A stretch of DNA of 64,000 nt from Escherichia phage SmurfNell. The position numbers were made by a program, and so were the translations under genes. This document shows, piece after piece, positions 9,856 to 38,554 of the stretch (the first letter of the stretch is position 1; every line of letters starts with the position of its first letter). The DNA lies in sequence record OR896824.1. One strand, written 5' to 3'. Below the pieces are notes generated by a model. It ran no database searches and was not told the DNA's origin. It worked only from the letters and a program-made list of their open reading frames with translations.

Positions 9856-9886
9856 ATTTAAACTCCTCTCTCAAATTTATGAATCT

Positions 9887-9915
9887 ATTATACAGAAAAT
9901 TTTTCCTGAAAGCAA
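9887..9915 (-). promoter_or_regulatory. T5 P_N25-like early promoter (minus strand)
   Basis: Reverse complement AAAATTTATTTGCTTTCAGGAAAATTTTTCTGTATAATAGATTCATAAATTTGAGAGAGGAG matches the classic T5 P_N25 sequence as I recall it. Confidence 0.8.
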
Positions 9916-10382: not shown

Positions 10383-10611
10383 CTTCTTTAATTAATTCTC
10401 CTAATTCCTTATAAACACGTTCTAACTCAAAAGGGATACGTAAGGATACTCGTACCTTACGTTGTTTTAATAGCCATATAGATACGTTCGGAATACCAGC
10501 CAATCTGGGAGGGACCACTCGGCATAGTTTCTCCGCAGTATCGTAAACAGAAGTTTTACGTTCTTTTACGTAAAACTTCCTTGTTTCCCACTTTTTATTC
10601 TTCGCTGTCAT
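10360..10611 (-). CDS. hypothetical basic protein (about 83 aa)
   Basis: Small ORF between the HNH gene and the 929-aa gene; start at 10611 chosen to minimise overlap, uncertain. Confidence 0.35.
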   Translation of the reverse strand: MTAKNKKWETRKFYVKERKTSVYDTAEKLCRVVPPRLAGIPNVSIWLLKQRKVRVSLRIPFELERVYKELGELIKEDDNSRRG

Positions 10612-13384
10612 TTCTAGCCCCCAATTCAGCAAGAGCTTCCTCATGCATCTGACGTTCTTCATCTGTCATAAACTTAACTGGAATCGGCATACATTCGATC
10701 TTACAGTAAGTTCTGTACCAGTCCACAATCTTTTCCGTATCCAGATCTTTACCGATACCCATCATGCCAAGATACATACGAGCATATTTTGGGTTAGCGC
10801 TCTGACCTGTCTTAAGGAAGAAATCCTTCTTCTTATTCTTAAGAGCTTCGATAAACGGTTTGATTGTTACGTTTGAACACTTTTTAATATCTTCCCAGAA
10901 CATGTCGTGCATCTTATGGAAGAATGCAGCTCTATCGTTTGGTTTATCCTTGATATACTGTTCAACGTGTTCCACTGTTACATCTTTAATAGAATCCAGA
11001 TGATAATAGCGAACCAGAAGCAATTTAGCTTCATAGGCATCTGCATGACGTGGTGCGCAATATTCAGGAGTTGAGTGCAAAATAGCTTTGATTCGCTCTT
11101 CTGTATACTCTTTGCCTGCACCTTCGATAGTTCCCCAGCTTTCACTGAAAATATCAATAGTTGCACCCTGATCAAGCAGATAATAACGCAAAGTACTAGT
11201 ATAGTTTCTGGACTCCAGTTCACGACGACGTGCATACAGCTGCTGAGCTAACTCAACCCAACCCTCATCAATATTATATTGCTCGGAACCCGCAGAAAAT
11301 CCACTCGTAGATTTATCAATAAAATAATAAATGTTCTGAGCACCACGGTCGCGCCTGATTGCTTGGAAACGCATGTTTGGCGCTTGGTTTGAGGTTCTAG
11401 TGATAACAAATACGTTATCAAAATAGTTAAAGTCAACGCCACTCGTTACAGATGGACTACATAACAAACAATCAATCTGTTGATCAATTAGCTCATTAGT
11501 AGTGTAATCCAGAATACGTCGGATATCTACATCAGACGTAGAGTTTGAGTGAATTTCTTTAACTAACGCACCAGTGTTACGACGTAACGCCATCCCCTTT
11601 TCATTCAGTTCATCTGGCCCACAGTCAGATACTAGGATTGATTTCTCCCCCATCTCTAGTGAAGTCTGGAGTGCGACCCAAATACTGGATTCATCAGGGA
11701 ACTCATATGCATGAGCTTTTGCCAGCATTTTACGGTGATGATTATAGAACGCGACCGGTTTATCAAAATCAATCAAAGAACCATAGGCTTCAATCGTTTC
11801 TGCACTGATATCACCATCAGATAAGATAACCGTTTTTGCAGTAATAAGAATATCGCGAAGAACCTGAATACATTCACGACGGTTTTTAACAACCGGGGCG
11901 AATAACAGATCATTCATTACTGCGTCACATTCATCAATAAAGATCGTATCAATCTGACCCACAAAGCTCTTGAACTTATGGATAGAGTGAATAGTTGAAG
12001 ACATACGATCAATAGCACCACGTTTGAAGTTCAGCATATCAACTGACTTATCATACTGACCAGCACCGAATTTCTTCGCGTTTGAAGATACAAGTGCCCT
12101 AGTATTCGTGATTGCAATAAAGTTTCCTGGAAGAACACCTGCATCTAGCCACTTAGTTACTGCTGTGGTTTTACCTGTACCAAGACTTGCCTTAACAAAT
12201 GTTAAATGTCCTTTTGGGGGTACAATGTTAATCTTCAAGTATGGAACTTCTGGCGGTGAATCTGTGTCCAGACGCTTTAGTGGTACACCTTTTAAGTTGG
12301 GTGGAATCTCACGTTTGGAGTTATTCACAAAGGCTTTTAGAGCCTGCTTACGACCGTTATTAAAGTAATCTTGAATATTACGACTATTATCTTTAGTTGC
12401 AATATATTCAGATAAAGCTGGTTTAATCTCACGTTCTAACCACGTAAAGTCAACACCATCTTCTAACGCTCTGTGATAAAGTTTTGGGATAATACGCAGG
12501 TACACCCCATCCTCAGCTTCTTCTAGTTCGCTGATGGTTTCTTCCACTTTATCAGATGCAGCCTTCTTGCCTTTAATTTGGTCAAGTAAGGAGTAGAATT
12601 CTTCTTTAAACTCACCTCTAGTTGTTTCAAAGTCAACTAGGTTATTGGGTAGATTCACTTTCGAACCCTTAACATACACAAGACGTGGTTTATTCTCCGC
12701 TTTAAACGGATCGACTATACCATCATCAAATAAGGGATCTGCGAAATAGTGAAGCTGAACAGAAGAATAATAAGCTAAGTCAGCAATATCAAAGCCATAC
12801 TTTTGCTTACTACTGTCATTGATGGATGTAAATAAGAATTTTAATTGCCCCTGCGTTACCTTGACATTAGATTCTAGCATTAAGTGCATTCGGATACCTG
12901 GTTTTAATCCAGCCGAAGACGATGCATGAGCAATAAACCCTGCATCAAGAGGAAACATATCCTCACTAATACTATTCAACATCTTAATAATATGACGTGC
13001 CATGCCAACAAGATTAAACTTGTCATAGCCACCAGTATCTACAATACCATCCACGTCCATAGCAATAATATGACTAGGATTGGATACGTTAAAGTTTCCC
13101 CTGGTACGACGCACATTATCTTTTGGAGCTAAACATTTACCACGAATAGCTACAATATGCGGGTCTTTGGTAAGACGACGCATGATAGGTAACATTTCAG
13201 CAAGGTTTTGCGGGTCAAGTTCTTCAAGTACATCAAATTTGAAGGGCATGGAAGCTGGTTTACCTTCTGGATGCTCTTTAGAGAATCGCTTTGCAAAGGT
13301 GTAATCTTCCACTTTGATCTCTTTCCAGATGCCAGTGGCTTTATCTCTGGAAAATCCTGCGTGACCTTGTAGGATTGAGAACAC
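10595..13384 (-). CDS. putative replication origin-binding / helicase-like protein (929 aa from GTG 13384)
   Basis: Walker A LGTGKTT and Walker B FIDECD in the central region; GTG start at 13384 has an AGGAG RBS 8 nt upstream, while the ORF-track ATG at 13507 adds an implausible Cys-rich N-terminus. Confidence 0.65.
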   Translation of the reverse strand: MFSILQGHAGFSRDKATGIWKEIKVEDYTFAKRFSKEHPEGKPASMPFKFDVLEELDPQNLAEMLPIMRRLTKDPHIVAIRGKCLAPKDNVRRTRGNFNVSNPSHIIAMDVDGIVDTGGYDKFNLVGMARHIIKMLNSISEDMFPLDAGFIAHASSSAGLKPGIRMHLMLESNVKVTQGQLKFLFTSINDSSKQKYGFDIADLAYYSSVQLHYFADPLFDDGIVDPFKAENKPRLVYVKGSKVNLPNNLVDFETTRGEFKEEFYSLLDQIKGKKAASDKVEETISELEEAEDGVYLRIIPKLYHRALEDGVDFTWLEREIKPALSEYIATKDNSRNIQDYFNNGRKQALKAFVNNSKREIPPNLKGVPLKRLDTDSPPEVPYLKINIVPPKGHLTFVKASLGTGKTTAVTKWLDAGVLPGNFIAITNTRALVSSNAKKFGAGQYDKSVDMLNFKRGAIDRMSSTIHSIHKFKSFVGQIDTIFIDECDAVMNDLLFAPVVKNRRECIQVLRDILITAKTVILSDGDISAETIEAYGSLIDFDKPVAFYNHHRKMLAKAHAYEFPDESSIWVALQTSLEMGEKSILVSDCGPDELNEKGMALRRNTGALVKEIHSNSTSDVDIRRILDYTTNELIDQQIDCLLCSPSVTSGVDFNYFDNVFVITRTSNQAPNMRFQAIRRDRGAQNIYYFIDKSTSGFSAGSEQYNIDEGWVELAQQLYARRRELESRNYTSTLRYYLLDQGATIDIFSESWGTIEGAGKEYTEERIKAILHSTPEYCAPRHADAYEAKLLLVRYYHLDSIKDVTVEHVEQYIKDKPNDRAAFFHKMHDMFWEDIKKCSNVTIKPFIEALKNKKKDFFLKTGQSANPKYARMYLGMMGIGKDLDTEKIVDWYRTYCKIECMPIPVKFMTDEERQMHEEALAELGARNDSEE

Positions 13385-13880
13385 AACAATACTCCTATGT
13401 TGGTTATTCGGATATCTTTCTTTAGGACTATTCAAAAGAATAGAACAACTATTACTACCATTTACACAAACATTAATCATCATCAAGCAGTATGAATAAG
13501 TTATCATACCTCAGTGCTGCGCTCTCTTAACTCTTATCCAGATCAGAACCTAGGTCATTGGCCGCTAAGCCGATTCTGATTGCCCTCACTATCCTATTGG
13601 TAGGTGGCTACTGGACGTGTCACCATTCGCTGCTCTTTTCGTTCGCACCCCCATATAAAGCTCTGCCTATATAACGAGCTAAATATGCACGGTTTGGATT
13701 TACCTTTCCGAATTCAGGGTACGCAGATCACTTAATTGATAATTAACTAATGCAGTATAAACACTAGTAATAGTTAAAACAACCCTTAATGGGGCAGCCT
13801 AACTGTTCCGTATTGCGGATTGTAAACAAGAAAAATTAGCAAAATCAATTTTTACTAATGTCTCTCAATTCAATATAAAT
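13385..13880 (-). other. long ORF-free leader / possible structured RNA upstream of the 929-aa helicase-like gene
   Basis: About 500 nt between minus-strand promoter 13881-13909 and the GTG start at 13384 with no ORF of 60 aa or more on either strand; locally GC-rich segment at 13540-13660. Confidence 0.3.
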
Positions 13881-13909
13881 ATTATATCAAGATTTTGAGC
13901 ATCCTGCAA
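13881..13909 (-). promoter_or_regulatory. T5-type sigma70 promoter with ~500-nt leader (minus strand)
   Basis: Reverse complement reads TTGCAG-17-TATAAT; nearest downstream start is the GTG at 13384. Confidence 0.5.
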
Positions 13910-14000
13910 GTAAAATTTTTCCGAAGGTGCTATCAGTGTCCTTGAGCACAGAGAAAACCGAGTCATTTTGACTCGGTAATCAGGATTGAGCTAATGAAAA

Positions 14001-14396
14001 TCAATCATCATTTAGGCCTGGGACATAGATTCCAATGCGATTTAATTGACCTTTAGCTTCTTCGAGAATATCTTCGGTGTACTCCCAAATATCATCTTCT
14101 ACTTGCAAAAGATAAGGGGATTCACCAGTTTCGGGGTCACGTGTAATGGCTAAGCCACGTGGATGGAATATAGAGAAGTTGAGGGCAACAATCAAGCCCA
14201 TGCTGGACAATTCATTCCAGTCAGCTTCCCAACCATCATCTTCATCTTCGTCCACAAAGACACCTACACTAGGGTCTGTTACAGAAGTAAACGGAAATGT
14301 TACACTAACCTTGTCAACCCCCAACCAACGTGCAAGGAGCCCTTCAGCACGCTCTACCAAACTAGGATCTATCTGACGCCAAAATACTTGTTCCAT
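14001..14396 (-). CDS. hypothetical protein, paralog A (131 aa)
   Basis: Shares conserved segments with the adjacent 142-aa ORF (W.EL..MGL..ALN...F.P....I.....TGE.P). Confidence 0.55.
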   Translation of the reverse strand: MEQVFWRQIDPSLVERAEGLLARWLGVDKVSVTFPFTSVTDPSVGVFVDEDEDDGWEADWNELSSMGLIVALNFSIFHPRGLAITRDPETGESPYLLQVEDDIWEYTEDILEEAKGQLNRIGIYVPGLNDD

Positions 14397-14405: not shown

Positions 14406-14834
14406 TTAAGCAGTTAAACCTGGGATCATATACCCGAAACGACGAAGTTTCTGAATCCCCTCATTTACTTCTTCGGGCGAATATGACCAGCCCTCACGTT
14501 CATTTACCTGGAAAGCAGGAGCTTCACCAGTGCGATAGTTTACAATAAGACGGTGATTTGCAGGCATAAACAGCTTATGGTTCAAGGCAAAAACCAGACC
14601 CATTTCATCTAGTTCTTTCCAGTCTACAATTTCTTCTACTCTCTCACCTAAATCCACGCTAACTCCAATACATGGAGCTTCCTCTAGTGGGCCTTTAAAG
14701 GATAGGAAGATATCGTTATTCTCACACCAAATCTTAAGCAGATTGATGGTTTCATTATACATACCATTAGGGAGAGAACGCCAGAAGTTGAGGAGCATAG
14801 GGTTTACCTCTTTCATGAAAAGATTATCGAACAT
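14406..14834 (-). CDS. hypothetical protein, paralog B (142 aa)
   Basis: Tandem paralog of 14001-14396. Confidence 0.55.
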   Translation of the reverse strand: MFDNLFMKEVNPMLLNFWRSLPNGMYNETINLLKIWCENNDIFLSFKGPLEEAPCIGVSVDLGERVEEIVDWKELDEMGLVFALNHKLFMPANHRLIVNYRTGEAPAFQVNEREGWSYSPEEVNEGIQKLRRFGYMIPGLTA

Positions 14835-14836: not shown

Positions 14837-15376
14837 TTACACCTTAAGTTTCTGAAGAGCCTTACACATTTCAAGATCTGGACTAAACTCCAGCATATAG
14901 CTGATAGCATTTAAATCTTGAAGGTTTATTCCAGTCCTGCCATTTACAATAACAGTAGGGAATTGGTACATCATAGCACCAGCATCATCTAGGACACACC
15001 AATGCTTGAGCTTATATTTTTCGACGAAACGTAAAACAGAATTACCCCGAGATAAACCACCTCCAGTAAAATCTGTTGTACCAAGGAAACGATCGATCAA
15101 ACCGAGCCCGGTCATAATCTGAACGTTCTCCATCTCATTTCGTACAGAAAACCATGAAGATACCCCAACAATCATTATTGGGGATGGCTTAAGAAAGTTC
15201 TGAAAAGCCTGGAGTAATGGCTTGTAAACCCAATCACCACCAAAGAATAGCTTCTCACTATCTGGAGCATGATGGTGAGAGATGCTCGAATTGAGCACCC
15301 CATCAATATCCAGGAAAATCACAGGAGTATTACTTATTTCCACCAGTAGCATCCCACGTCCAGACTTTAACTTCAT
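14837..15376 (-). CDS. HAD-superfamily-like hydrolase (putative nucleotidase/phosphatase)
   Basis: HAD motif I FLDIDGVLN near the N-terminus and conserved downstream Asp (WCVLDD). Confidence 0.55.
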   Translation of the reverse strand: MKLKSGRGMLLVEISNTPVIFLDIDGVLNSSISHHHAPDSEKLFFGGDWVYKPLLQAFQNFLKPSPIMIVGVSSWFSVRNEMENVQIMTGLGLIDRFLGTTDFTGGGLSRGNSVLRFVEKYKLKHWCVLDDAGAMMYQFPTVIVNGRTGINLQDLNAISYMLEFSPDLEMCKALQKLKV

Positions 15377-17164: not shown

Positions 17165-17192
17165 AGCTTTCTCCTCTCAAATTTATAAATCA

Positions 17193-17221
17193 ATTATACA
17201 TAAGTTTTAGCTCGAAAGCAA
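17193..17221 (-). promoter_or_regulatory. T5-type sigma70 promoter (minus strand)
   Basis: Reverse complement reads TTGCTT-17-TATAAT followed by TGATTTATAAATTTGAGAGGAG leader. Confidence 0.6.
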
Positions 17222-17262: not shown

Positions 17263-19137
17263 TTATTTAGCGCGAATGTCCTGATGTTTCACTCGACCCA
17301 TAACCTCATGTTGTTTACCTGGGTTAAATGGACGAGCACCTGGATTTCCGAGATATCCACAAACTCGACGAGTTACCTCAAGAGTCTCAGGATCATGGTT
17401 GCCACAAATTGGGCATTTGAAACCATCCTCAGAAGCTATAGTTTCACCCAAGAACCCACATTCCCCACAAGAGTCTACTGGAGTATTAATACCAAAGTAA
17501 TGAACTTTACTTGCGGCATAGTTAATAACCCATTCCAGTGCATCTGGGAATCGTTTCATATCCGGCAATTCCACATAGGAAATGCATCCACCAGAAGCAA
17601 TTGGAGTAAAGTTAGACTCATAATCGAACTTCACGTTTGGAGCAACCTTACGTTCTACATCAAGGTGATGGGAATTAGTGTAATATCCTTTAGCCAGAAT
17701 ATCTTCATGCTCTGGAAAATACTCACGGTCTAGGCGACAGAAGCGATCACATAGAGATTCAGATGGTGTAGCATATAGACTATACCCTAATTGAGTCTCT
17801 TCCTTCTTCTGATCAGCACGATCACGCATGTATTGTAGCACACGTTGAACGAACTTGACACAAGACTCAGACATTGTATCTACATCTTTACCAAACATGA
17901 ACTGCAACATTTCGTGGCAGCCTATATATCCTAGAGATACAGAAGCACGCTTGTAGAAATGATCAAACACATATTCATCTGGCCCCAGACGTAATCCAAA
18001 GGCTCCTGACATATAGAGGATGGGTGCAGCTTTAGCTTGGATGTATTTTAAGCGATCAACCCTCCACTCCAATGCTTTTAACGCGGTATCCACACGCAGC
18101 TCAAGTAGATCGAAGAATAGATCAATATTTCCTTCCGCTTCGATAGCGATTCGAGGAAGGTTTACGGAAACAACACCTAAGTTATTACGGCCAGAAGTTT
18201 CACCATCTTCCGCAGCAGCTAGGAATGATCGACAGCCCATAGAGACTTTGTAGTCTCCCGTAACTTCTACAACCTTATCATAACTGATGTAGTCAGGATA
18301 CATACGTTCAGCAGTACATTTCATAGCTAACTTCTTGATATCATAGTTAACATCACCAGGTTTCATATTTACGCCATCACGCAAAACAAATACCAGTTTA
18401 GGGAAGATAGCTGTACGTTTATTGATACCCAAACCATCCATACGCACTTCTAAGATTGCTTTCTGTACAAGACGTGCTTCCCAGGAAGTTCCTAGACCAA
18501 AACCAAAGGTAATAAATGGACTCTGACCATTAGAGTTGAACATCGTATTGATTTCATACTCTAGACCTTGACAGGCATCGTAAACTTCTTTCTCAGTCAT
18601 TTCCGTAGCCATTACAGATGCTTTGGCTTCATCCTTAGTCCAACGCTTTGCAAACGCATGATTCTTATCATAAGACTTACGAACATAAGGAGCCAGTACT
18701 TCATCTAATCGGTCTACAGAAGTACCACCATATTGATGGGAGCTAACCTGAGTAATAATCTGAGCTGTAATAGCAGCCGCAGTAGTAATGGAGTTTGGCG
18801 TACTGATTTCAGCATTACCAACCTTCATACCGTTTTTCAACATATCTTCCAAAGCAACCAGGCAACAGTTAGTCATACCTAACACAGCGTAATCAGCATC
18901 ATGGAAGTGAATATCACCAATCATGTGAGCATTTCGAATCTGGATTGGCATTTCTTCCAGAATCAGATATTTACTCAATTCCCCTGCAAGCATGTCCCTT
19001 TGTGTAGGGAAACGTTCTGAGGGCTTATTGGCATTATTAAACAGCAGCTCTTCATCTGCTGACCCTTCGATAATCTCTTTGCAGTTTCTAATTAACGCCT
19101 GCATTTCTTTATACTTTAGTTCTTCATTGCGATTCAT
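17263..19137 (-). CDS. nrdD: anaerobic ribonucleoside-triphosphate reductase (class III RNR)
   Basis: C-terminal glycyl-radical motif RVCGYLG preceded by a Cys4 zinc ribbon (CGECGF...CPICG); 624 aa. Confidence 0.9.
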   Translation of the reverse strand: MNRNEELKYKEMQALIRNCKEIIEGSADEELLFNNANKPSERFPTQRDMLAGELSKYLILEEMPIQIRNAHMIGDIHFHDADYAVLGMTNCCLVALEDMLKNGMKVGNAEISTPNSITTAAAITAQIITQVSSHQYGGTSVDRLDEVLAPYVRKSYDKNHAFAKRWTKDEAKASVMATEMTEKEVYDACQGLEYEINTMFNSNGQSPFITFGFGLGTSWEARLVQKAILEVRMDGLGINKRTAIFPKLVFVLRDGVNMKPGDVNYDIKKLAMKCTAERMYPDYISYDKVVEVTGDYKVSMGCRSFLAAAEDGETSGRNNLGVVSVNLPRIAIEAEGNIDLFFDLLELRVDTALKALEWRVDRLKYIQAKAAPILYMSGAFGLRLGPDEYVFDHFYKRASVSLGYIGCHEMLQFMFGKDVDTMSESCVKFVQRVLQYMRDRADQKKEETQLGYSLYATPSESLCDRFCRLDREYFPEHEDILAKGYYTNSHHLDVERKVAPNVKFDYESNFTPIASGGCISYVELPDMKRFPDALEWVINYAASKVHYFGINTPVDSCGECGFLGETIASEDGFKCPICGNHDPETLEVTRRVCGYLGNPGARPFNPGKQHEVMGRVKHQDIRAK

Positions 19138-19166
19138 TATACTCTCCTTCTCTAACTAAGACTACT

Positions 19167-19195
19167 ATTATAACTCATTCGAGGGCGGATGTCAA
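19167..19195 (-). promoter_or_regulatory. consensus sigma70 promoter upstream of nrdD (minus strand)
   Basis: Reverse complement reads TTGACA-17-TATAAT, a perfect consensus. Confidence 0.6.
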
Positions 19196-19264
19196 TATAA
19201 TTTTTCTCTTAGACATTGTATTTTGATCTGTGCTAAGAAAATTGATCAGAATGTCAAAATTTTA

Positions 19265-19291
19265 TTGACACCACCATAACTTTTGTATAAG
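19265..19291 (+). promoter_or_regulatory. sigma70-like promoter upstream of the HNH gene at 19331
   Basis: TTGACA-15-TGTATAAG (extended -10). Confidence 0.45.
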
Positions 19292-19330
19292 ATATACACA
19301 TAACTTAAAAATTTTGACAAGGAAATAAAA

Positions 19331-19822
19331 ATGAATACTGAAATAACACAAGACCTACTAAGAACCTACTTTGACTATAAAGATGGAGAATTGTTTTACA
19401 AACCAACCTATAAAACCCCTGCGGGAAGAATATCCAAAAAAGCAGGTAAATCTGCCAGACTAACTCCGTGTAACGGGTACTATCGTATAAATGTACCAAG
19501 AATAGGTGTACAGAAAGAACATAGGATGATTTTCCTATATCATGAAGGATACCTACCAGAAGTAGTAGATCATATTGATAGGGATAAAGAAAATAATAGG
19601 ATAGAGAACCTTAGGGCATCTAATCTTCAGGATAACGCTATTAATCGCTCCATAAGTAAGAGTAATACCTCTGGTATTGTGGGTGTACATTATGATGAAT
19701 CATATGGTAAGTGGGTTGTAACGTATAGGGGTAAGTACTTTGGAAGATTCGATACTAAAGAAGAAGCTGCCGAAGTTAATGCTAATGTTCGTGCCCTTGA
19801 TCAAACCCGTATAAATAGTTGA
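19331..19822 (+). CDS. HNH homing endonuclease
   Basis: YLPEVVDHIDRDKENNRIENLR HNH core and N-terminal FDYKDGELFYKP motif; free-standing between nrdD and phoH. Confidence 0.7.
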   Translation: MNTEITQDLLRTYFDYKDGELFYKPTYKTPAGRISKKAGKSARLTPCNGYYRINVPRIGVQKEHRMIFLYHEGYLPEVVDHIDRDKENNRIENLRASNLQDNAINRSISKSNTSGIVGVHYDESYGKWVVTYRGKYFGRFDTKEEAAEVNANVRALDQTRINS

Positions 19823-19905
19823 GTATCTAGTACCACACATCTCCCAATAAAAGCAAGCAAATTTTTTATTTAAAAGCAATATCATAGGCTTATTTAAAAT
19901 TGTAG

Positions 19906-19934
19906 TTGCTTTCTCCCGTATATATTGGTATAAT
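19906..19934 (+). promoter_or_regulatory. T5-type sigma70 promoter upstream of phoH
   Basis: TTGCTT-17-TATAAT. Confidence 0.55.
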
Positions 19935-20007
19935 ATATTTGTAAGTTGATAAACAAGATCTTTTTGTTGATCCTCTGTTAGCGAAGTACACTATAGGAGT
20001 GTTATTT

Positions 20008-30202: not shown

Positions 30203-30231
30203 TTGCTTTCAGCTCCAAAATTCTGTATAAT
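30203..30231 (+). promoter_or_regulatory. T5-type sigma70 promoter
   Basis: TTGCTT-17-TGTATAATAT plus ATTCATAAATTTGAGAGAA leader. Confidence 0.65.
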
Positions 30232-30271
30232 ATATTCATAAATTTGAGAGAACAACAAAAGGAAAATAATT

Positions 30272-33937: not shown

Positions 33938-34012
33938 CGGGGTGTAGTCTAAGGGATAGGCAGGAGTCTTCTAAATTCCTTTATGCAGGTTCGAATCCTG
34001 TCACCTCGGCCA
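33938..34012 (+). tRNA. tRNA-Arg (anticodon TCT)
   Basis: Hand-folded cloverleaf: acceptor CGGGGTG/CACCTCG, anticodon loop CTTCTAA, T-loop TTCGAAT, encoded CCA. Confidence 0.7.
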
Positions 34013-34038
34013 ATTTTATTAACTGCTAGGAAAATAAA

Positions 34039-34239
34039 GTGAAAACACGATATATAGTAAAAGTAGTAGGTGAACATTCACAAGTAAATACCACCGATGT
34101 TACAGCGCTAGCATTTGAAGTAGTCTCCGGTATAGTCATATTTCATAACGGAGATATCAAAGCTCCTGAATTTGCTGTGGATGCTAGCCTGTTTATTTCT
34201 GCAACTAAAGTAACTGTAGTAGCTAACCCTTCTAAATAA
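34039..34239 (+). CDS. hypothetical protein (66 aa, GTG start)
   Basis: ORF immediately after tRNA-Arg with AGGAAA RBS. Confidence 0.4.
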   Translation: MKTRYIVKVVGEHSQVNTTDVTALAFEVVSGIVIFHNGDIKAPEFAVDASLFISATKVTVVANPSK

Positions 34240-34250
34240 TAAGGAAATAT

Positions 34251-35195
34251 ATGTTTACTAAAAACACTAAAGAACTGACTTCCGATCAAAAAGTAATTCG
34301 TACTATTAAACGTTGGGGCGTTGGTGCTGTAGTTGGTCTTGGCGCTCTTATTCTGGCTCTCAATTCCTATACAGTTGTTCAGGACGGTACGGTTAAAACT
34401 CAGACTTTCCTGGGTAAAGTTAGTCCTAATCCTGTATTGCCGGGGTTCCATATTGTCAACCCATTCGCCTCTTTTGATACTTTTAGTACGAAAGATATTT
34501 CTATGAAACTGGATAAACTTCAGGTTCCTAGCCAGGATAAGTTTAAGTCCACTGTTGACATTACCGTTATGTTGCAGTTTGATGGTGCTAAAGCTCCTAT
34601 GAACCGTGTTAACGCAGGTACTCAGGATCAAGCTCTGAACAAGTACGTTGAAGAGAAGATGCTATCTACGATTCGTGAGTTTGGTAAGTCTGTACCAAAA
34701 GCACAAGATCTGTTCGACGCTAAGATTCAGGCTCAACTGCAAACTGCTATTCAGCAAGAAGTAGAAGAGTACGCGCGTCCTTATGGTTACACGGTTAAGC
34801 AAGTATTCCTTCAGGATATTACTCTGCCACCTGTAATCATGGAACAGGTACAAAACACAAAAGTTCGTGAAGAACAAGTTAACGCCGCTAAAGCTGAATT
34901 GGCTCGTGTTGAACAAGAAGCACAGCAGAAAGTTAAGCAAGCTGAAGCTGATCGTTCTGCTCGTGAAAACATGGCAGTAGCTAACGAACGTGACGCAGAT
35001 GCTAAACTGTACGCAGCTAAGAAAGAAGCTGAAGCTAACGCCGCGCTGCAACGTACCATTACTCCTGAAATGATTCGTTGGAAGCAGCTGGAAGTTGAAA
35101 TGCTTCGTGCTGAAAAATACCAAGGTGGTGTACCGCAGACTATTGTTGGTACTGGCTACGATGGTCAAATGATCATGGATATGCGTAACAAGTAA
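34251..35195 (+). CDS. SPFH/band-7 (prohibitin/HflKC-like) membrane protein
   Basis: N-terminal transmembrane helix (WGVGAVVGLGALILAL) followed by an SPFH-like domain and a long coiled coil; terminator at 35219-35260. Confidence 0.65.
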   Translation: MFTKNTKELTSDQKVIRTIKRWGVGAVVGLGALILALNSYTVVQDGTVKTQTFLGKVSPNPVLPGFHIVNPFASFDTFSTKDISMKLDKLQVPSQDKFKSTVDITVMLQFDGAKAPMNRVNAGTQDQALNKYVEEKMLSTIREFGKSVPKAQDLFDAKIQAQLQTAIQQEVEEYARPYGYTVKQVFLQDITLPPVIMEQVQNTKVREEQVNAAKAELARVEQEAQQKVKQAEADRSARENMAVANERDADAKLYAAKKEAEANAALQRTITPEMIRWKQLEVEMLRAEKYQGGVPQTIVGTGYDGQMIMDMRNK

Positions 35196-35218
35196 TAGTT
35201 ACACGTAATCTTCGAACC

Positions 35219-35260
35219 AAGCCCGCGTTTCCTCCGAGAGCGCGGGCTTTTCTGTATTTA
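35219..35260 (+). terminator. rho-independent terminator downstream of the SPFH gene
   Basis: AAGCCCGCG...CGCGGGCTT stem followed by TTCTGTATTT. Confidence 0.6.
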
Positions 35261-35407
35261 AGGCAAAAGAAAAGCCCATAAGTTATTCAACTAAGGTCTT
35301 TAGTATTTAATTCTTTAATTCTTTAGAATCATATACTATTATTGTAGCAACAACGTGCTACCACTAAATGCCTTGAGATTTTTCCACTAAAAAGTTTAAA
35401 AATTCGA

Positions 35408-35436
35408 TTGCTTGAACGCTAAATTCTCTGTATAAT
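35408..35436 (+). promoter_or_regulatory. T5-type sigma70 promoter upstream of nadR-pnuC
   Basis: TTGCTT-17-TGTATAATAT plus ATTTATAAATTTGAGAGAGGAATCAAAT leader. Confidence 0.7.
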
Positions 35437-35466
35437 ATATTTATAAATTTGAGAGAGGAATCAAAT

Positions 35467-36522
35467 ATGATTAAGACTGGTCTAGTAATTGGTAAGTTCG
35501 CGCCATTAACGCGTGGTCATATTAACCTAATAAACACAGCAGCAACTATGTGTGAACGAGTTATTGTTGTAGTTAGTCATGATAATCGTTGGCTGGATAA
35601 GCAGAACACACGTGATCAGGAAGTATTACAGTTAAAGAATCGACTTCGTTGGTTAGAACAAACTTACGCGGATATTGAGCACATTTCGGTAGAGTACATT
35701 ATTGAAGATGATATTCCTGAATATCCGAATGGTTGGCCGGAATATGCTAGAATCCTTAATGAAAATTACGGACATTTGCCTGAGATCACCGTTTTCTCTA
35801 GCGAACTAGACTATGATGCAGAATATAAGAAATATCTGCCGAAGTTTGGTCATTATATTGTAGATTCTGATCGGACTCGTGTTCCAATCTCAGCTACAAT
35901 GATTCGTAATGATCTTATGAAGTATTGGGAGTTTCTTCCTAGCGTAGTTCGTAAAGATTACGTGCGTAAGGTTGTAATCATTGGGACTGAAAGCTCGGGA
36001 AAGACTACTTTAACAAAATACCTTGCGAAGCTATACAACACTTCGTGGGTAGAAGAATATGGCCGAACGTATTGTGAAGTTGATCTAGTTGGTAACGAAA
36101 ATCTACTTATCAGTGAAGATTACAGTAAAATTGCGTTCAGACACAAAGAGCTAGAGTTTGAGGCAGAACGTACTGCAAATAAGATCATGTTTGTAGACAC
36201 AAATGCTTTTATTACTGAGTTCTACCACAGACTTTATGAACATCGTAAGAATCCTGTGGTTACAGCAATTGCAAAAGAAGAACATTACGATTTAGTAATT
36301 GTTCTAGCGCCTACTGTTAAGTGGGTAGATGATGGTTTACGTATTAACTCCGATCGTTCAATTACTTCTGAACTGTTCGAGCAGATGAAGAAAGAATTTC
36401 CAAATCAGTTCCCTGAAGGGCGTACTGTTTACATCGACTCCCCGGACTACAAAGTTCGTATGGACGAAGCAGTAAACGCAGTAGACTGGCTGATTCATCA
36501 CTTTAACGTTGGAGAGTTTTAA
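35467..36522 (+). CDS. nadR: NadR-like bifunctional NMN adenylyltransferase / ribosylnicotinamide kinase
   Basis: Cytidylyltransferase (H/T)xGH motif region (GKFAPLTRGHINLI) followed by a P-loop kinase domain (VVIIGTESSGKTTL); start 35467 after GAGAGAGGAA RBS. Confidence 0.75.
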   Translation: MIKTGLVIGKFAPLTRGHINLINTAATMCERVIVVVSHDNRWLDKQNTRDQEVLQLKNRLRWLEQTYADIEHISVEYIIEDDIPEYPNGWPEYARILNENYGHLPEITVFSSELDYDAEYKKYLPKFGHYIVDSDRTRVPISATMIRNDLMKYWEFLPSVVRKDYVRKVVIIGTESSGKTTLTKYLAKLYNTSWVEEYGRTYCEVDLVGNENLLISEDYSKIAFRHKELEFEAERTANKIMFVDTNAFITEFYHRLYEHRKNPVVTAIAKEEHYDLVIVLAPTVKWVDDGLRINSDRSITSELFEQMKKEFPNQFPEGRTVYIDSPDYKVRMDEAVNAVDWLIHHFNVGEF

Positions 36523-36523
36523 T

Positions 36524-37201
36524 ATGACTAACTATCTTGTAAATGACTTTAAAAACTGGAAACCTTTGGAATATCTGTGGCTGTTTATAGCAGTCGCCTT
36601 TATTAGTTTAGCAAACTATAATGGTACAGCTCTAGATTGGGCTACTGCAATAACCAATGTGGTTTGTGTTATTCTGGTTGCAAAAGGACGTGTTTCCAAC
36701 TATATTTGGGGCTTAGTGGGTGTTCTTACATATGGTATTACAGCTTTAAACGCAGATCTTTATGGTAACGCTGCACTAAACCTGCTATACTACGTTCCTA
36801 TGCAGTTTTATGGAATGTACTTATGGCATAAAAATAAGCCAAGTAATCTGCCAGATGTTCCAACTAAGTTTCTGACTAAAGCCCAAGCTCTGCTGACTCT
36901 AGGGATTCTAGCAGTAGCCACGTTAGGGTATGGTAGTTTCTTAGCTACTACAGCTGATCCATTCCCAATGCTCGATGCATTTACTGCGGTTGGTAGTGTG
37001 ATCGCTATGTGGCTTATGGTTAAGCAGTATGCCGAGCAGTGGCTGATCTGGATTGCTATTAACATTGGTACTGTGTACATTTGGCTTGTAACTGCTCAAT
37101 CTACAGGTGCATCTTATGCAATCCTAGCAATGTGGCTAGTATTCTTAGGTAACTCTATTATGGGAGCCTATAAAGGATACTTTGTACGCGTTAACAAATA
37201 A
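36524..37201 (+). CDS. pnuC: PnuC-like nicotinamide riboside transporter
   Basis: About 225-aa polytopic membrane protein with Trp/Tyr-rich motifs (NYIWGLVGVLTYG, LYYVPMQFYGMYLW) typical of PnuC; overlaps nadR stop. Confidence 0.7.
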   Translation: MTNYLVNDFKNWKPLEYLWLFIAVAFISLANYNGTALDWATAITNVVCVILVAKGRVSNYIWGLVGVLTYGITALNADLYGNAALNLLYYVPMQFYGMYLWHKNKPSNLPDVPTKFLTKAQALLTLGILAVATLGYGSFLATTADPFPMLDAFTAVGSVIAMWLMVKQYAEQWLIWIAINIGTVYIWLVTAQSTGASYAILAMWLVFLGNSIMGAYKGYFVRVNK

Positions 37202-37207
37202 AGTAGT

Positions 37208-37236
37208 TATAGCCCTCGCTTAGAGGGCTATTATAC
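37208..37236 (+). terminator. putative terminator downstream of pnuC
   Basis: TAGCCCTC-GCTTA-GAGGGCTA hairpin followed by a weak T-run. Confidence 0.4.
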
Positions 37237-37248
37237 AGAAATTTTCAC

Positions 37249-37277
37249 TTGCTTAATATAGAAAATTTCTGTATAAT
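37249..37277 (+). promoter_or_regulatory. T5-type sigma70 promoter
   Basis: TTGCTT-17-TGTATAATAT plus ATTTATAAATTCGAGAGAGGAATCAAAC leader. Confidence 0.7.
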
Positions 37278-37307
37278 ATATTTATAAATTCGAGAGAGGA
37301 ATCAAAC

Positions 37308-37604
37308 ATGAAACGCATTGTACTTGCATTGACTCTAGTATCTACTTCTGTATTTGCTGCTCCGCAACAGGAACTTTGTCAAGTTCAGGTTTGTAATAAG
37401 CTAGAACGATTTACTCTAAACATTTGGTCCCATATTAAAGATAATATGGGTGAACAGTGTTTTGATATTGTTCTGCCAAAAGAACAGGCTATTCCTGGTG
37501 CTGTTCTTAGCTCAGAATCACGTTGGTGGCAGGGTTCTTCTATCAATCCAACTAAGAAGTCAGTGACACGTATCAAACAAGTATATCAGTGCAAGGTTCA
37601 GTAA
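37308..37604 (+). CDS. secreted hypothetical protein (98 aa)
   Basis: Signal peptide MKRIVLALTLVSTSVFAAP; downstream of promoter 37249-37277. Confidence 0.55.
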   Translation: MKRIVLALTLVSTSVFAAPQQELCQVQVCNKLERFTLNIWSHIKDNMGEQCFDIVLPKEQAIPGAVLSSESRWWQGSSINPTKKSVTRIKQVYQCKVQ

Positions 37605-37612
37605 AATTTCAC

Positions 37613-37641
37613 TTGCTTAATGTCGAAATTTTCTGTATAAT
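37613..37641 (+). promoter_or_regulatory. T5-type sigma70 promoter driving the first tRNA block
   Basis: TTGCTT-17-TGTATAATAT; tRNA-Ser starts 15 nt after the -10. Confidence 0.65.
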
Positions 37642-37655
37642 ATATTCATAAATTC

Positions 37656-37749
37656 GGAAGATTAACCCTAATGGTAAGGGAGCTGTTTGCTAAACAGCCA
37701 GTAGCTGTGGAGACACGGTGTGCCAGTTCGAATCTGGCATCTTCCTCCA
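37656..37749 (+). tRNA. tRNA-Ser (anticodon GCT), type II
   Basis: Acceptor GGAAGAT/ATCTTCC, anticodon stem-loop GCTGT-TTGCTAA-ACAGC, long variable arm, T-arm GCCAG-TTCGAAT-CTGGC, CCA. Confidence 0.7.
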
Positions 37750-37754
37750 GATTT

Positions 37755-37832
37755 GGTTCTCAAGCTCATTTGGTATGAGCCGTCGCCTCATAAGCGAAAG
37801 GTAGGTAGGTTCGAATCCTCCGGGAGCCACCA
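37755..37832 (+). tRNA. tRNA with CAT anticodon (Met or Ile2)
   Basis: Acceptor GGTTCTC/GGGAGCC with G-U pairs, D-stem GCTC/GAGC, anticodon loop CTCATAA, CCA; one mismatch in T-stem. Confidence 0.55.
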
Positions 37833-37849
37833 ATTAATTAGGAGACTAT

Positions 37850-38035
37850 ATGTCACGCTTTCGAGAAATTGCTCAAGAGCTAGAAGAATGTGCCTGCCCA
37901 AAATGCTTCGGAGCAGGTGAATGGAACGATGCTGAACCTGGTGATACATGGTATAATACATACGTTTGTACACATTGTAATAGTTCTGGTATTAATCCTG
38001 AATGCGGTATTTCTCTAGATATTGAGCGAGGCTAA
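37850..38035 (+). CDS. small Cys-rich zinc-ribbon protein (61 aa)
   Basis: CxxC...CxxC (CACPKCFGAG...CTHCNSSG); GGAG RBS. Confidence 0.5.
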   Translation: MSRFREIAQELEECACPKCFGAGEWNDAEPGDTWYNTYVCTHCNSSGINPECGISLDIERG

Positions 38036-38538: not shown

Positions 38539-38554
38539 AATTAAGGAAATAAAA

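What the first reader, a model, noticed from the sequence alone, without database searches (positions are those of the whole stretch)
13385..13909. About 500-nt untranslated leader with a GC-rich structured segment upstream of the 929-aa helicase-like gene
The nearest promoter (13881-13909, minus strand) lies about 500 nt upstream of the best start codon (GTG 13384). The intervening sequence has no ORF of 60 aa or more on either strand and includes an atypically GC-rich stretch (about 13540-13660) in an otherwise AT-rich genome. It might be a regulatory leader, a small RNA, or a replication origin (the downstream gene looks like an origin-binding helicase).
Basis: seen in the sequence. Interest (0 to 1): 0.5.

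Follow-up and report, generated by a model that had tools for sequence, protein, structure and literature searches.

The report
Structured leader RNA of T5-like phages
The ~490-base untranslated stretch in front of the D2 replication-helicase gene of this T5-like phage encodes a large folded RNA that is conserved across the phage family and matches no catalogued RNA family; its job is unknown, but the evidence points to an RNA-level element rather than a DNA replication origin.

Summary
A T5-type early promoter (13881-13909, minus strand) is followed by about 490 nt with no conserved ORF before GTG 13384 of the 929-aa D2 helicase gene. GC is 0.50 at 13540-13660 against 0.40 for the window.

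The interval encodes a conserved structured RNA, read in the D2 direction:
- The first ~97 nt are 99% identical between phages whose flanking genes are 72-86% identical.
- A ~40-bp AU-rich long-range rod (13736-13776 with 13446-13486) and a second helix close a GC-rich multi-helix core.
- The core contains an invariant CUUAGCGG hairpin motif.

Evidence for structure:
- The sense strand folds at -117 kcal/mol (z -4.0); the antisense strand at -87 (z -1.8).
- In 19 relatives, 46 of 86 predicted pairs show compensatory changes, against 9.8±2.4 in shuffles.
- The window's own allele shows six compensatory pairs.
- The core exists as two unalignable alleles with the same topology.

Rfam has no match, and the motif occurs only in T5-like phages. 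Origin signatures (iterons, skew switch) are absent.

Function is unproven. My best guess is an RNase III-processed leader or ncRNA tied to D2. I found no earlier description of it in the searched databases and papers.

The parts
13957..13977 (-). Intrinsic terminator closing the upstream operon (the DUF7415 gene ends at 14001).
   Evidence: 9-bp stem followed by a T-run. The homologous site is annotated as a terminator in T5 and Stitch.
13862..13909 (-). T5-type early promoter: -35 TTGCAG at 13904-13909, TG-extended -10 TATAAT at 13881-13886, and the downstream TTGAGAG box at 13862-13868. The inferred transcription start is near 13874.
   Evidence: Sequence. It is one of 5 TATAAT-N12-TTGAGAG sites in the window, with 0.07 expected by chance. 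A promoter is annotated at the homologous T5 position. Activity and the exact start were not measured.
13778..13874 (-). Ultraconserved 5' segment of the leader (RNA nt 1-97).
   Evidence: 99% identical to both T5 and the B-type phage HMD-P3 (L008), while D2 coding DNA is 83-86% and the upstream gene 72-74% identical. It is the only part of the leader still alignable to Pectobacterium phage DU_PP_V (about 74%).
13791..13809 (-). Conserved 5' hairpin HP5, GG-AA-CAGU-UAG-GCUG-CC, inside the motif ACGGAACAGUUAGGCUGCC.
   Evidence: Predicted in both alignments. There is an A-U to G-C swap in metagenome lineage L055 and a G-C to A-U swap of the outer pair in Klebsiella phages (sequence). The motif is unique in the window. 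In IMG/VR it occurs only on T5-like contigs.
13736..13776 (-). 5' arm of the long-range AU-rich rod P1 (RNA nt 99-139).
   Evidence: Pairs with 13446-13486. Duplex energy is -42 kcal/mol against -14.7±3.0 for shuffles, z -9. It appears in the MFE and centroid folds and in the consensus of 16 A-type sequences. It was found independently as inverted repeat I1.
13446..13486 (-). 3' arm of rod P1 (RNA nt 389-429).
   Evidence: As for the 5' arm. The rod is kept with different sequences in B-type phages, DU_PP_V and My1 (z -6 to -9) and is weaker in L055 and Klebsiella (z -2.2 to -2.6). Alignment A2 helix 2 has 8 compensatory pairs.
13716..13732 (-). 5' strand of closing helix P2 (AGUG-AU-CUGCG...).
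   Evidence: Pairs with 13513-13527. CUGCG/CGCAG here becomes CUGUG/CACAG in T5, CUACA/UGUAG in B, CUGUA/UACAG in L055 and CUAGA/UCUAG in Klebsiella.
13513..13527 (-). 3' strand of closing helix P2 (CGCAG-CACU).
   Evidence: Same evidence as for the 5' strand.
13528..13715 (-). GC-rich multi-helix core enclosed by P2.
   Evidence: GC 0.46-0.52. Within the A-type group there are compensatory pairs in three core helices: helix 10, the hairpin before P-d, and the P-d outer helix. The same topology with unalignable sequence (58% identity) is found in B-type phages.
13542..13580 (-). Hairpin P-d: outer helix AUCAGAAUC/GGUUCUGAU and inner GGC/GCC stem capped by UUAGCG. The invariant motif CUUAGCGG is at 13562-13569.
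   Evidence: TTAGCGG occurs exactly once in the 800 nt upstream of D2 in every lineage examined (the newly fetched representatives also show it). There are two compensatory pairs between the window and T5, 7 of 8 pairs are compensatory in the B-like set, and 8 different outer-helix sequences all pair.
13489..13510 (-). Hairpin P-f (GUAUGA-UAACUUAU-UCAUAC), between P2 and the 3' arm of the rod.
   Evidence: G-C to A-U swap between the window and T5. 4 of 5 pairs are compensatory in the B-like set. 8 distinct versions all pair.
13385..13445 (-). 3' tail of the leader: small hairpin CUAUUC-UUUU-GAAUAG (13428-13443) and Shine-Dalgarno AGGAG (13392-13396).
   Evidence: Sequence. 80-87% identical to B-type and T5. 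The Shine-Dalgarno sequence is predicted mostly unpaired here (0.78), and no partner is conserved across lineages.
10595..13384 (-). D2 gene (929 aa, GTG start): the bipolar SF2 helicase of T5, annotated 'replication origin binding protein'. It is the gene served by the leader.
   Evidence: ORF. PHROG 3712 over the full length; Pfam Herpes_ori_bp over residues 391-533 only. NCBIfam CyRepA1 over 392-713, below its cut-off. D2 biochemistry is in PMC3632103.

Best explanation
SHOWN: the interval is a gene-sized, evolutionarily conserved RNA structure. It would be transcribed on the minus strand from a T5-type early promoter (activity not measured) and has no terminator-like hairpin before D2, so it is presumably co-transcribed with D2.

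Its anatomy is as follows:
- a sequence-ultraconserved 5' segment (nt 1-97) with a small conserved hairpin;
- a ~40-bp AU-rich long-range rod (P1) stacked on a second helix (P2);
- these two helices together close a ~190-nt GC-rich core of several hairpins, one of which is capped by the invariant loop UUAGCG.

INFERRED (my committed mechanism): the element works as RNA, coupled to D2.
- The rod is the kind of long imperfect duplex that host RNase III cuts.
- Cutting it would sever the folded core from the D2 message.
- That cut would set the 5' end, and hence the stability and output, of the D2 mRNA.
- It would also release a compact core RNA of about 300 nt that binds a protein partner, D2 itself or a host factor, giving feedback or cofactor activity.
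- The sequence-invariant 5' segment and the UUAGCG loop are the most likely recognition sites.

I put about 0.9 on 'functional structured RNA under selection' and about 0.4 on this particular mechanism.
For: Structure:
- The sense strand folds at -117.2 kcal/mol, z -4.0, with 0 of 100 shuffles as good. The antisense strand gives -87.1, z -1.8.
- The P1 duplex is -42 kcal/mol against -14.7±3.0 in shuffles.
- In 19 B-like sequences from four lineages, aligned by MAFFT and not fitted to structure, 86 pairs are predicted and 97.1% of cells are paired. 46 pairs have double changes, against 9.8±2.4 in shuffles (0 of 500) and 8-16 when partners are slid.
- In the window's own A-type group, 126 pairs are predicted and 99.7% of cells are paired, against 33-51% when slid. 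Six pairs are compensatory against 0-1 when slid. Of 19 variable pairs, 14 keep pairing in every sequence.
- Six helices occur in 5-8 different sequence versions that pair with their own partner (92-100%) but not with partners from other lineages (47-72%).
- A covariance model built without Klebsiella phages finds their 3' domain at E 8e-4.

Coupling to D2:
- The gap is 590-800 nt, on the same strand and directly upstream of D2, in all eight enterobacterial lineages examined.
- No terminator-like hairpin was found between the RNA and D2 in the window, a Proteus phage and a Providencia phage.

Processing idea:
- P1 has 11-13 continuous base pairs within about 40 bp.
- The core is a swappable module between constant flanks: 99% identity, then 58%, then 80%.

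Not coding.
Against: - There are no transcript data of any kind. The transcription start, processing and stability are all inferred.
- RNase III cleavage is predicted from the shape of the rod only. The rod is weaker in Klebsiella phages and L055 (z -2.2 to -2.6).
- The ribosome-binding site is not consistently sequestered in predicted ensembles, so simple translational occlusion is not supported.
- In Proteus phages a perfect-consensus promoter lies between the structured region and D2. In Providencia and Proteus phages 230-400 extra nt separate them. There the RNA cannot be needed merely as D2's 5' UTR.
- The model built from B-type RNAs does not detect the window's A-type core, nor the Providencia, Proteus or Vibrio phages. 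Homology of the A-type core with the others rests on shared topology, anchors and short motifs.
- Within the A group the six compensatory pairs all separate the same two clades, and the shuffle control cannot distinguish them (6 against 5.8).
Confidence: 0.4

Rival explanations
1. It is a stand-alone trans-acting non-coding RNA. The folded domain is the product, and its position upstream of D2 reflects co-expression or partnership, not cis control. Possible roles are an RNP with the D2 helicase, or a decoy or sponge for a host factor or defence system.
For: - The domain is closed by its own long terminal rod, as excised stable RNAs are (own knowledge: rRNA precursor stems).
- The core is exchanged as a module between constant flanks.
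- Proteus phages have a separate 12/12 consensus promoter for D2 downstream of the RNA.
- The Shine-Dalgarno sequence is not sequestered.
- Size and complexity exceed those of typical cis leaders.
- Two deeply diverged alleles could reflect an arms race.
Against: - No terminator-like hairpin follows the domain in any lineage scanned.
- It is never found away from D2 in IMG/VR.
- No partner or target could be identified. GGA motifs are not enriched by eye, so a CsrA-type sponge is unlikely.
Confidence: 0.3
2. It is a replication origin or pre-primer RNA. Transcription from the early promoter through AT-rich DNA makes a structured RNA that forms an R-loop or primer, as at ColE1, T7 or the T4 oriF origin. 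It is used by the adjacent D2 initiator-like helicase.
For: - A strong promoter is followed by two very AT-rich segments (GC 0.21 and 0.27) flanking a GC-rich core.
- The adjacent gene resembles replication initiator helicases: Herpes_ori_bp and CyRepA1.
- In T5 the locus lies at about 48.5% of the genome.
- A folded pre-primer RNA such as ColE1 RNA II would also show covariation (own knowledge).
- The UL9 box core GTTCGCAC occurs once in the 64-kb window, inside this leader at 13641-13648 (the box sequence is recalled from memory).
Against: - There are no iterons or repeat arrays.
- There is no GC-skew inflection here.
- No antisense promoter-like site lies within the leader.
- The GTTCGCAC box is present only in the A-type allele (16 of 43 sequences), although D2 is conserved in all.
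- The 'origin-binding' similarity covers only the helicase core.
- Recombineering strand bias indicates dominant unidirectional T5 replication from one end (PMC10055335).
Confidence: 0.1
3. It is a promoter-proximal cis-acting RNA that modifies the transcribing RNA polymerase (processive antitermination, in the manner of HK022 put or EAR), or that times early transcription.
For: - It lies immediately downstream of an early promoter.
- The first 97 transcribed nt are 99% conserved, far above the neighbouring genes, as expected for an element read by the transcription machinery.
Against: - The transcription unit appears short: the next early-type promoter is at 9868-9892.
- No terminators lie between the RNA and D2.
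- The element is several times larger than known put or EAR RNAs, and none was matched in Rfam.
Confidence: 0.07
4. There is no specific function: the interval is a spacer or recombination scar whose apparent structure is chance or compositional.
For: - MFE z-scores are unimpressive in some lineages: L055 -0.7 and Klebsiella -1.5.
- HNH endonuclease genes and an 88-nt module insert into this intergenic region.
Against: - 46 of 86 pairs are compensatory, against about 10 in shuffles and 8-16 in slid controls.
- The 5' segment is 99% conserved next to genes at 72-86%.
- The length, position and CUUAGCGG motif are kept across eight lineages.
- The insertions fall upstream of the promoter or in the 5' segment, never in the rod or core.
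Confidence: 0.03

Closest known systems
RNase III-processed leaders and precursor stems (E. coli pnp and rnc leaders, T7 early mRNA R-sites, rRNA precursor stems). Own knowledge.
   Same: A long, imperfect, long-range duplex sits in a 5' untranslated region. Its cleavage would both define the mRNA 5' end and excise what it encloses.
   Different: Here the enclosed part is an elaborate, conserved ~190-nt multi-helix core with invariant loops, not a simple stem or a known stable RNA. Cleavage is untested.
Large structured non-coding RNAs of unknown function, some of them phage-borne (GOLLD, ROOL, HEARO, OLE, raiA)
   Same: Several hundred nucleotides, many covarying helices, invariant loop motifs, and (for GOLLD and ROOL) carried by phages.
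   Different: No Rfam model matches at E up to 1-10. It is embedded as the leader of a replication gene rather than standing alone near tRNAs, and it is confined to T5-like phages.
ColE1 RNA II pre-primer, and transcription-primed phage origins (T7 primary origin, T4 oriF/oriG). Own knowledge.
   Same: About 500 nt of untranslated, folded RNA from a strong promoter, next to replication functions, with AT-rich DNA nearby.
   Different: No antisense promoter-like site, no mapped origin, no repeat elements. The RNA runs straight into a coding gene, and published strand-bias data disfavour a central T5 origin.
Processive antitermination RNAs (HK022 put, EAR). Own knowledge.
   Same: A promoter-proximal cis RNA whose first ~100 nt are sequence-invariant.
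   Different: It is four to six times larger, it heads a short transcription unit, and there is no similarity to those families.
HSV oriS / UL9 origin-binding system
   Same: The downstream protein shares the UL9 helicase core. The A-type leader contains one copy of GTTCGCAC.
   Different: No similarity to the UL9 DNA-binding domain was detected. The box is absent from all non-A alleles. There is no palindromic origin architecture.

Membership tests
Any Rfam 15 family (4227 models, including RNase P RNA, tmRNA, 6S, riboswitches, GOLLD, ROOL, HEARO, group I/II introns) | A covariance-model match at or near the family's gathering score | tested here: not met
   Nothing lies in the leader at E<=1 in the window, at E<=10 in six related loci, or at E<=1 in four more. 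The only hits in or next to the intergenic regions overlie terminator hairpins or are weak (E 0.17-5), far below their gathering scores.
RNase P RNA (considered because ACAGAAC..GGCU and GGCUUAnCGG resemble the P4/J regions as I recall them) | P4 helix with conserved regions CR-I to CR-V, in the correct order | tested here: not met
   No RNase P model scored. The motifs lie in the wrong order, and GGC-UUAGCG-GCC forms a local hairpin with its own covariation.
Protein-coding gene or leader peptide | An open reading frame conserved in frame across relatives | tested here: not met
   The longest stop-free stretch is 47 codons. Similarity between close relatives appears in all frames, and frames shift through indels. 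No cross-lineage protein similarity exists beyond the nucleotide-conserved ends. A 20-codon UUG frame in the 5' segment is broken in DU_PP_V and by the 88-nt insert (sequence).
Iteron-type or initiator-box replication origin | Arrays of direct repeats or initiator-binding boxes | tested here: not met
   Only five two-copy 9-20-nt chance-level repeats were found and no array. The single long inverted repeat is rod P1.
Replication origin (any type) | Strand-compositional switch at the site | tested here: not met
   Cumulative GC skew falls steadily through 13.5 kb. The sign change is at about 19-20 kb.
Replication origin (any type) | AT-rich unwinding element | tested here: inconclusive
   Two segments with 0.21 and 0.27 GC exist, but they are the two arms of a covarying RNA helix.
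Replication origin (any type) | Initiation of DNA synthesis at the site, or autonomous replication with the initiator | not testable with these tools
   This needs marker-frequency or 2D-gel mapping, or a plasmid replication assay. Published strand-bias data argue for replication from one end (PMC10055335).
ColE1-type RNA II primer | An antisense regulator (RNA I) promoter within the first ~110 nt | tested here: not met
   No plus-strand promoter-like site lies between 13385 and 13909 in the consensus scan. This is a simple scan only.
Riboswitch or attenuator-type cis leader | An expression platform: a terminator, or a Shine-Dalgarno-sequestering helix alternative to the sensor fold | tested here: not met
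   There is no terminator-like hairpin between promoter and start codon. The predicted unpaired probability of the Shine-Dalgarno sequence is 0.78 here and varies from 0.02 to 0.63 in relatives, with no common partner. This is prediction only.
RNase III substrate | About two turns or more of mostly continuous double-stranded RNA | tested here: met
   P1 has 11-13 continuous base pairs within a ~40-bp rod of -42 kcal/mol. This is a predicted structure.
RNase III substrate | Cleavage in vivo or in vitro | not testable with these tools
   This needs wild-type versus rnc transcript mapping.
T5 early promoter class | TTGC-type -35, a 17-18-nt spacer, TATAAT, and the conserved transcribed-region box TTGAGAG | tested here: met
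   Sequence. Five such sites occur in the window against 0.07 expected. The consensus is quoted in the AKFV33 record. A promoter is annotated at the homologous position in T5.

The most novel reading that the evidence does not exclude
The folded core is cut out of the D2 leader as a stable RNA of about 300 nt. It is then an obligatory partner of the D2 helicase in starting T5 DNA replication, for example as a structured primer or origin-specifying RNA, or as the RNA subunit of a replication RNP. That would be a previously unknown class of phage replication RNA. The two deeply diverged alleles would reflect co-evolution with D2 or escape from host defences.
Probability: 0.12. Interest if true: 0.85.

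Novelty: new variant of a known kind. Interest (0 to 1): 0.6.

Why it matters
T5 is a classical model phage, and its relatives are widely used in phage therapy and biocontrol. Even so, how T5 starts and controls DNA replication is still unclear.

A gene-sized, covarying RNA sits directly in front of the D2 helicase gene in every enterobacterial member of the family examined. It has been left blank or filled with spurious 'hypothetical proteins' in several hundred deposited genomes. It is an obvious, testable candidate for a missing regulatory or mechanistic component.

For RNA biology, it adds a large structured RNA class of more than 300 nt with no Rfam relative. It also comes as two natural alleles that keep the fold while replacing the sequence, which is useful for structure determination and for dissecting function.

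Practically, genome annotators should stop calling ORFs here and should start D2 at the GTG.

Tried and rejected
- **Rfam.** Three searches at permissive E-values found nothing in the leader.
- **RNase P RNA.** I followed a by-eye resemblance of two motifs to RNase P RNA. It was rejected (see the membership test).
- **Joint alignment of all lineages.** A MAFFT alignment of A-type, B-type and Klebsiella 3' domains misaligned and gave no consensus. I therefore analysed the groups separately.
- **Covariance model R1.** Built from the B-like 3' domain, it recovered Klebsiella phages. It did not recover the window's A-type allele, Providencia, Proteus or Vibrio phages, even with filters off.
- **Pattern scans.**
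  - CTTAGCGG-N45-70-GTTGCCA was too unspecific and returned 120+ unrelated contigs.
  - The 5' motif scan of 596 Gb of bacterial genomes gave 40 scattered hits, at or below my chance estimate of about 140, so there is no host homologue.
- **Vibrio T5-like phages.** The long gap upstream of their D2 homologue exists, but it folds no better than shuffles (z -0.4). Extension to that clade is unproven.
- **Shine-Dalgarno sequestration.** No consistent partner was found.
- **Tertiary or kissing contacts.** I looked by eye at UUAGCG with UGCUAA, GGCUGC with GCGGCC, and the P-f loop with the GGUAAG loop. None covaried consistently.
- **UL9 box.** It is present only in the A allele.
- **CsrA-type GGA enrichment.** I counted about 5 by eye, which is about what is expected.
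- **D2 N-terminal domain.**
  - Pfam, PDB sequence and profile searches were negative.
  - The single-sequence AlphaFold model was unusable (pLDDT 35.6), so no fold search was run.
- **Python jobs.** Two timed out; only partial z-scores were obtained.
- **Literature.** Seven searches found no description of this RNA. The 1976 origin-mapping paper is not held.
Full report
**Context.** The window is a T5-like phage (Demerecviridae, genus Epseptimavirus). The 800 bases around the finding are 100% identical to Salmonella phages Sepoy, gmork and others, and about 92% identical to T5 itself. The window carries 30 tRNA genes. All features discussed here are on the minus strand. The finding is the intergenic region between a DUF7415 gene (the T5.107 homologue, stop at 14001) and the 929-aa gene starting at GTG 13384. 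That gene is T5 D2, a biochemically characterised bipolar SF2 helicase usually annotated 'replication origin binding protein'.

**Checking the observation.**
- The promoter (TTGCAG-17 nt-TG-n-TATAAT, 13881-13909) is present.
  - The generic consensus scan missed it because of its T5-type -35 hexamer.
  - It belongs to a set of five TATAAT-N12-TTGAGAG sites in the window, where 0.07 are expected by chance.
  - T5's RefSeq record annotates a terminator and a promoter at the homologous positions.
- The leader is about 490 nt.
- No ORF of 60 aa or more exists on either strand.
- The in-frame ATG at 13507 that some records use is put out of frame by a 1-nt indel in T5.
- 13540-13660 has GC 0.504 against 0.401 overall, in the top 2.6% of windows, and is flanked by segments of 0.21 and 0.27 GC.

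The GC enrichment is moderate.

**Conservation.** A non-coding gap of 590-800 nt lies directly upstream of D2, on the same strand, in every enterobacterial Demerecviridae lineage I looked at:
- A-type (this window, T5, Stitch);
- B-type (DT57C and many Tequintaviruses);
- Klebsiella Sugarlandvirus;
- Pectobacterium My1 and DU_PP_V;
- one metagenome lineage (L055);
- Providencia phages and Proteus phages.

Each carries exactly one TTAGCGG in the 800 nt upstream of D2 (the newly fetched representatives also show it).

The conservation profile is striking:

| Segment | Window vs B-type | Window vs T5 |
|---|---|---|
| Leader nt 1-97 | 99% | 99% |
| P1 5' arm, nt 98-145 | 65% | 88% |
| Core, nt 146-362 | 58% | 91% |
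| P-f + P1 3' arm, nt 363-430 | 59% | 84% |
| 3' tail, nt 431-490 | 80% | 87% |
| D2, first 900 nt | 83% | 86% |
| Upstream gene | 74% | 72% |

At 58-65% identity the middle ~330 nt is effectively unalignable between the A and B types.

**Evidence for RNA structure.**

*Thermodynamics.*
- The sense strand of 13440-13820 folds at -117.2 kcal/mol (z -4.0, 0 of 100 shuffles as good).
- The antisense strand gives -87.1 (z -1.8).
- The gap reflects the roughly 16% of predicted pairs that are G·U, which exist only in the sense RNA.

*Long-range rod.*
- RNA nt 99-139 pair with nt 389-429, that is 13736-13776 with 13446-13486.
- The duplex energy is -42 kcal/mol against -14.7±3.0 for shuffles.
- Equivalent rods of different sequence occur in T5, B-type, DU_PP_V and My1 (z -6 to -9). 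They are weaker in L055 and Klebsiella phages.
- The repeat finder saw the rod independently as the only long inverted repeat.

*Covariation in relatives.*
- I used a MAFFT alignment, not fitted to any structure, of 16 B-type sequences plus DU_PP_V, L055 and My1.
- RNAalifold predicts 86 pairs. 97.1% of cells are paired, and 46 pairs carry double (compensatory) changes.
- Shuffles give 9.8±2.4 such pairs (0 of 500 reach 46). Sliding the partners gives 8-16 such pairs and 37-46% pairing.

*Covariation in the window's own allele.*
- 16 A-type sequences give 126 pairs with 99.7% of cells paired, against 33-51% when slid.
- Six pairs are compensatory, against 0-1 when slid. They lie in P2, helix 10, the hairpin before P-d, the P-d outer helix (two pairs) and P-f.
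- Of 19 variable pairs, 14 keep pairing in every sequence.
- Caveat: those six changes all separate the same two clades, and the shuffle control cannot resolve them (6 against 5.8).

*Across lineages.*
- Six anchored helices exist in 5-8 sequence versions each. They pair 92-100% with their own partner and 47-72% with partners from other lineages. These helices were hand-picked, so some selection bias applies.
- A covariance model built without Klebsiella sequences finds their 3' domain at the right place (E 8e-4).
- It does not find the A-type allele or the Providencia, Proteus or Vibrio loci.
- The case that A and B are two alleles of one RNA therefore rests on identical flanks, identical topology (P1, P2, helix 10 enclosing a hairpin plus P-d, then P-f) and the shared CUUAGCGG loop. 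It does not rest on a single statistical model.

**Anatomy in window coordinates** (RNA nt n = 13875 - n):

| Feature | Coordinates |
|---|---|
| Transcription start (inferred) | about 13874 |
| Invariant 5' segment | 13778-13874 |
| Hairpin HP5 | 13791-13809 |
| Rod P1 | 13736-13776 with 13446-13486 |
| Helix P2 | 13716-13732 with 13513-13527 |
| GC-rich core | 13528-13715 |
| Hairpin P-d | 13542-13580 |
| CUUAGCGG motif | 13562-13569 |
| Hairpin P-f | 13489-13510 |
| Small 3' hairpin | 13428-13443 |
| Shine-Dalgarno AGGAG | 13392-13396 |
| GTG start | 13384 |

**What it is not.**
- It is not coding.
- It is not any Rfam family. This includes RNase P RNA, which two motifs superficially recalled.
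- It is not host-derived.
  - The HP5 motif occurs only on T5-like contigs in IMG/VR (32 loci).
  - Its 40 scattered hits in 596 Gb of bacterial genomes are at or below my chance estimate of about 140.
- I found no description of it in seven literature searches. The known 'long non-coding region' of T5 and BF23 is a different locus, at the FST/SST border.

**The origin hypothesis.**
- There are no iterons or repeat arrays.
- There is no GC-skew switch here; the sign change is at about 19-20 kb.
- No antisense promoter-like site lies within the leader.
- The Pfam 'origin binding' match covers only the helicase core of D2 (residues 391-533). An NCBIfam plasmid-replication helicase model also matches the core, below its cut-off.
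- The UL9 recognition core GTTCGCAC, recalled from memory, occurs once in the whole window, inside the leader at 13641-13648. It is confined to the A-type allele (16 of 43 sequences), so it is probably chance.

An RNA-primed origin is not excluded, since a pre-primer such as ColE1 RNA II would also covary. Nothing specific supports it, however.

**Mechanism.** Three things are shown:
- a structured RNA is under selection;
- it is on the D2 strand, with no terminator-like hairpin before D2;
- it has an invariant 5' segment and a structurally conserved but sequence-replaceable core.

My inference is that the rod is an RNase III-type processing site. Cleavage would separate the core from the D2 message, setting the message's 5' end and stability, and would release a compact core RNA that binds a protein. 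The invariant 5' segment and the UUAGCG loop would be the recognition elements.

Several observations argue against a simple cis switch:
- The Shine-Dalgarno sequence is not consistently sequestered in predicted ensembles.
- Proteus phages have a second 12/12 consensus promoter 37 nt before D2, downstream of the structured region.
- Providencia and Proteus phages have 230-400 extra nucleotides between the motif and D2.

These points raise the probability of a trans-acting, excised ncRNA. I therefore give about 0.9 to 'functional structured RNA', 0.4 to the processing/leader model, 0.3 to a stand-alone ncRNA, 0.1 to an origin or primer, 0.07 to an antitermination-type element and 0.03 to no function.

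**Comparison and novelty.**
- In how it may work, it most resembles RNase III-processed leaders.
- In form, it most resembles the large orphan structured RNAs (GOLLD, ROOL, OLE, HEARO).
- In context, it most resembles pre-primer RNAs.

It is not a member of any of these on any test I could run. It is best described as a new family of large structured RNA, specific to T5-like phages and tied to the D2 replication gene. Hundreds of deposited genomes leave the interval blank or fill it with spurious small ORFs.

**Limits.**
- There are no expression data.
- Only about eight independent lineages were available.
- The A-type core could not be placed in one statistical model with the others.
- The Vibrio clade is unresolved (z -0.4).
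- The function is inferred.

Noticed in passing
not in this window; L005 (DT57C) about 1174-1270, and L010 (atrejo), L029, L031, L047, between the equivalents of window 13835 and 13834: An optional module of about 88-96 nt, with its own hairpin (GGGAUUUACGG...CCGUAAAU), is inserted in the invariant 5' segment of the leader and flanked by the direct repeat TTTTTCTT. It is present once per genome, seemingly always at this locus, in 51 phage records of both A and B type. It splits the weak internal promoter-like site.
   Followed up: partly
L004 (S132) 1140-1592; L006 (AKFV33) 516-968; L009 (8sent1748) 516-968. This is the equivalent of window 13910-13950.: A free-standing HNH homing-endonuclease gene is inserted between the terminator and the leader promoter in some relatives. 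It brings its own replacement promoter, and the leader is intact from the GAGAGACAUUAG box onward.
   Followed up: partly
window 14837-15376 (-), 14406-14834 (-), 14001-14396 (-): The gene widely annotated 'Sir2 NAD-dependent deacetylase' (the T5.105 homologue) matches Pfam HAD_SAK_2, the HAD domain of 'Swiss Army Knife' RNA-repair proteins (E 8e-18). The two genes after it are DUF7415 paralogues that various records call 'tail tube' or 'RNA-binding' protein. A possible RNA-repair context lies right next to the structured RNA.
   Followed up: partly
window 12215-13384 (-), D2 residues 1-390: The N-terminal 390 residues of D2 match no Pfam, NCBIfam or PDB sequence. By eye they carry AEP/primase-polymerase-like motifs (AMDVDG, SSSAGLKPGIRMHL), and some records call the gene 'DNA primase'. 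A single-sequence AlphaFold model was unusable (pLDDT 35.6), so this is untested.
   Followed up: partly
window 13641-13648 (+): The only copy in the 64-kb window of GTTCGCAC lies inside the leader. This is the core of the herpesvirus UL9 origin box as I recall it. It is present in all 16 A-type sequences and in none of the 27 others.
   Followed up: yes
window 9868-9892 (-), 13862-13886 (-), 17174-17198 (-), 30226-30250 (+), 35431-35455 (+): There are five promoters of identical architecture, TATAAT-N12-TTGAGAG (0.07 expected by chance). This is the classical strong T5 early promoter type. Only the one at 13862-13886 was seen to be followed by a long untranslated leader; the others were not examined.
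   Followed up: partly
L045/L046 (Proteus phages) 705-733 and 1435-1464: Two perfect 12/12 sigma-70 consensus promoters bracket the ~730-nt structured region upstream of D2. The second is 37 nt before the D2 start codon.
   Followed up: partly
window about 19000-20000: The GC skew changes sign here (negative below, positive above). I assume this coincides with the switch from minus-strand to plus-strand genes.
   Followed up: no
window 33938-46248 (+): A cluster of 30 tRNA genes lies here, including three tRNA-Met and several tandem pairs.
   Followed up: no
GenBank MG065642.1 ('Campylobacter phage A148') and OR847565.1 ('Listeria phage LM 4-11-1'): These records are labelled as Campylobacter and Listeria phages. 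They are 100% and 98% identical to Salmonella/E. coli T5-like phages at this locus, so they are probably mislabelled or contaminant assemblies.
   Followed up: no
L002 (PMBT26), L007 (PMBT29), L016 (Vibrio phage D243): Automatic annotations place 29-60-aa 'hypothetical proteins' on both strands inside the leader, or start D2 at the non-conserved upstream ATG (970 aa). These calls are not supported by conservation.
   Followed up: yes
L015 760-1416 and L016 830-1500 (Vibrio T5-like phages): A gap of about 650-700 nt, largely ORF-free, also precedes the D2 homologue in Vibrio Demerecviridae. It has no sequence similarity to the enterobacterial RNA, no Rfam hit, and (tested for Quinn, L015, only) no better-than-shuffle folding (z -0.4).
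   Followed up: partly
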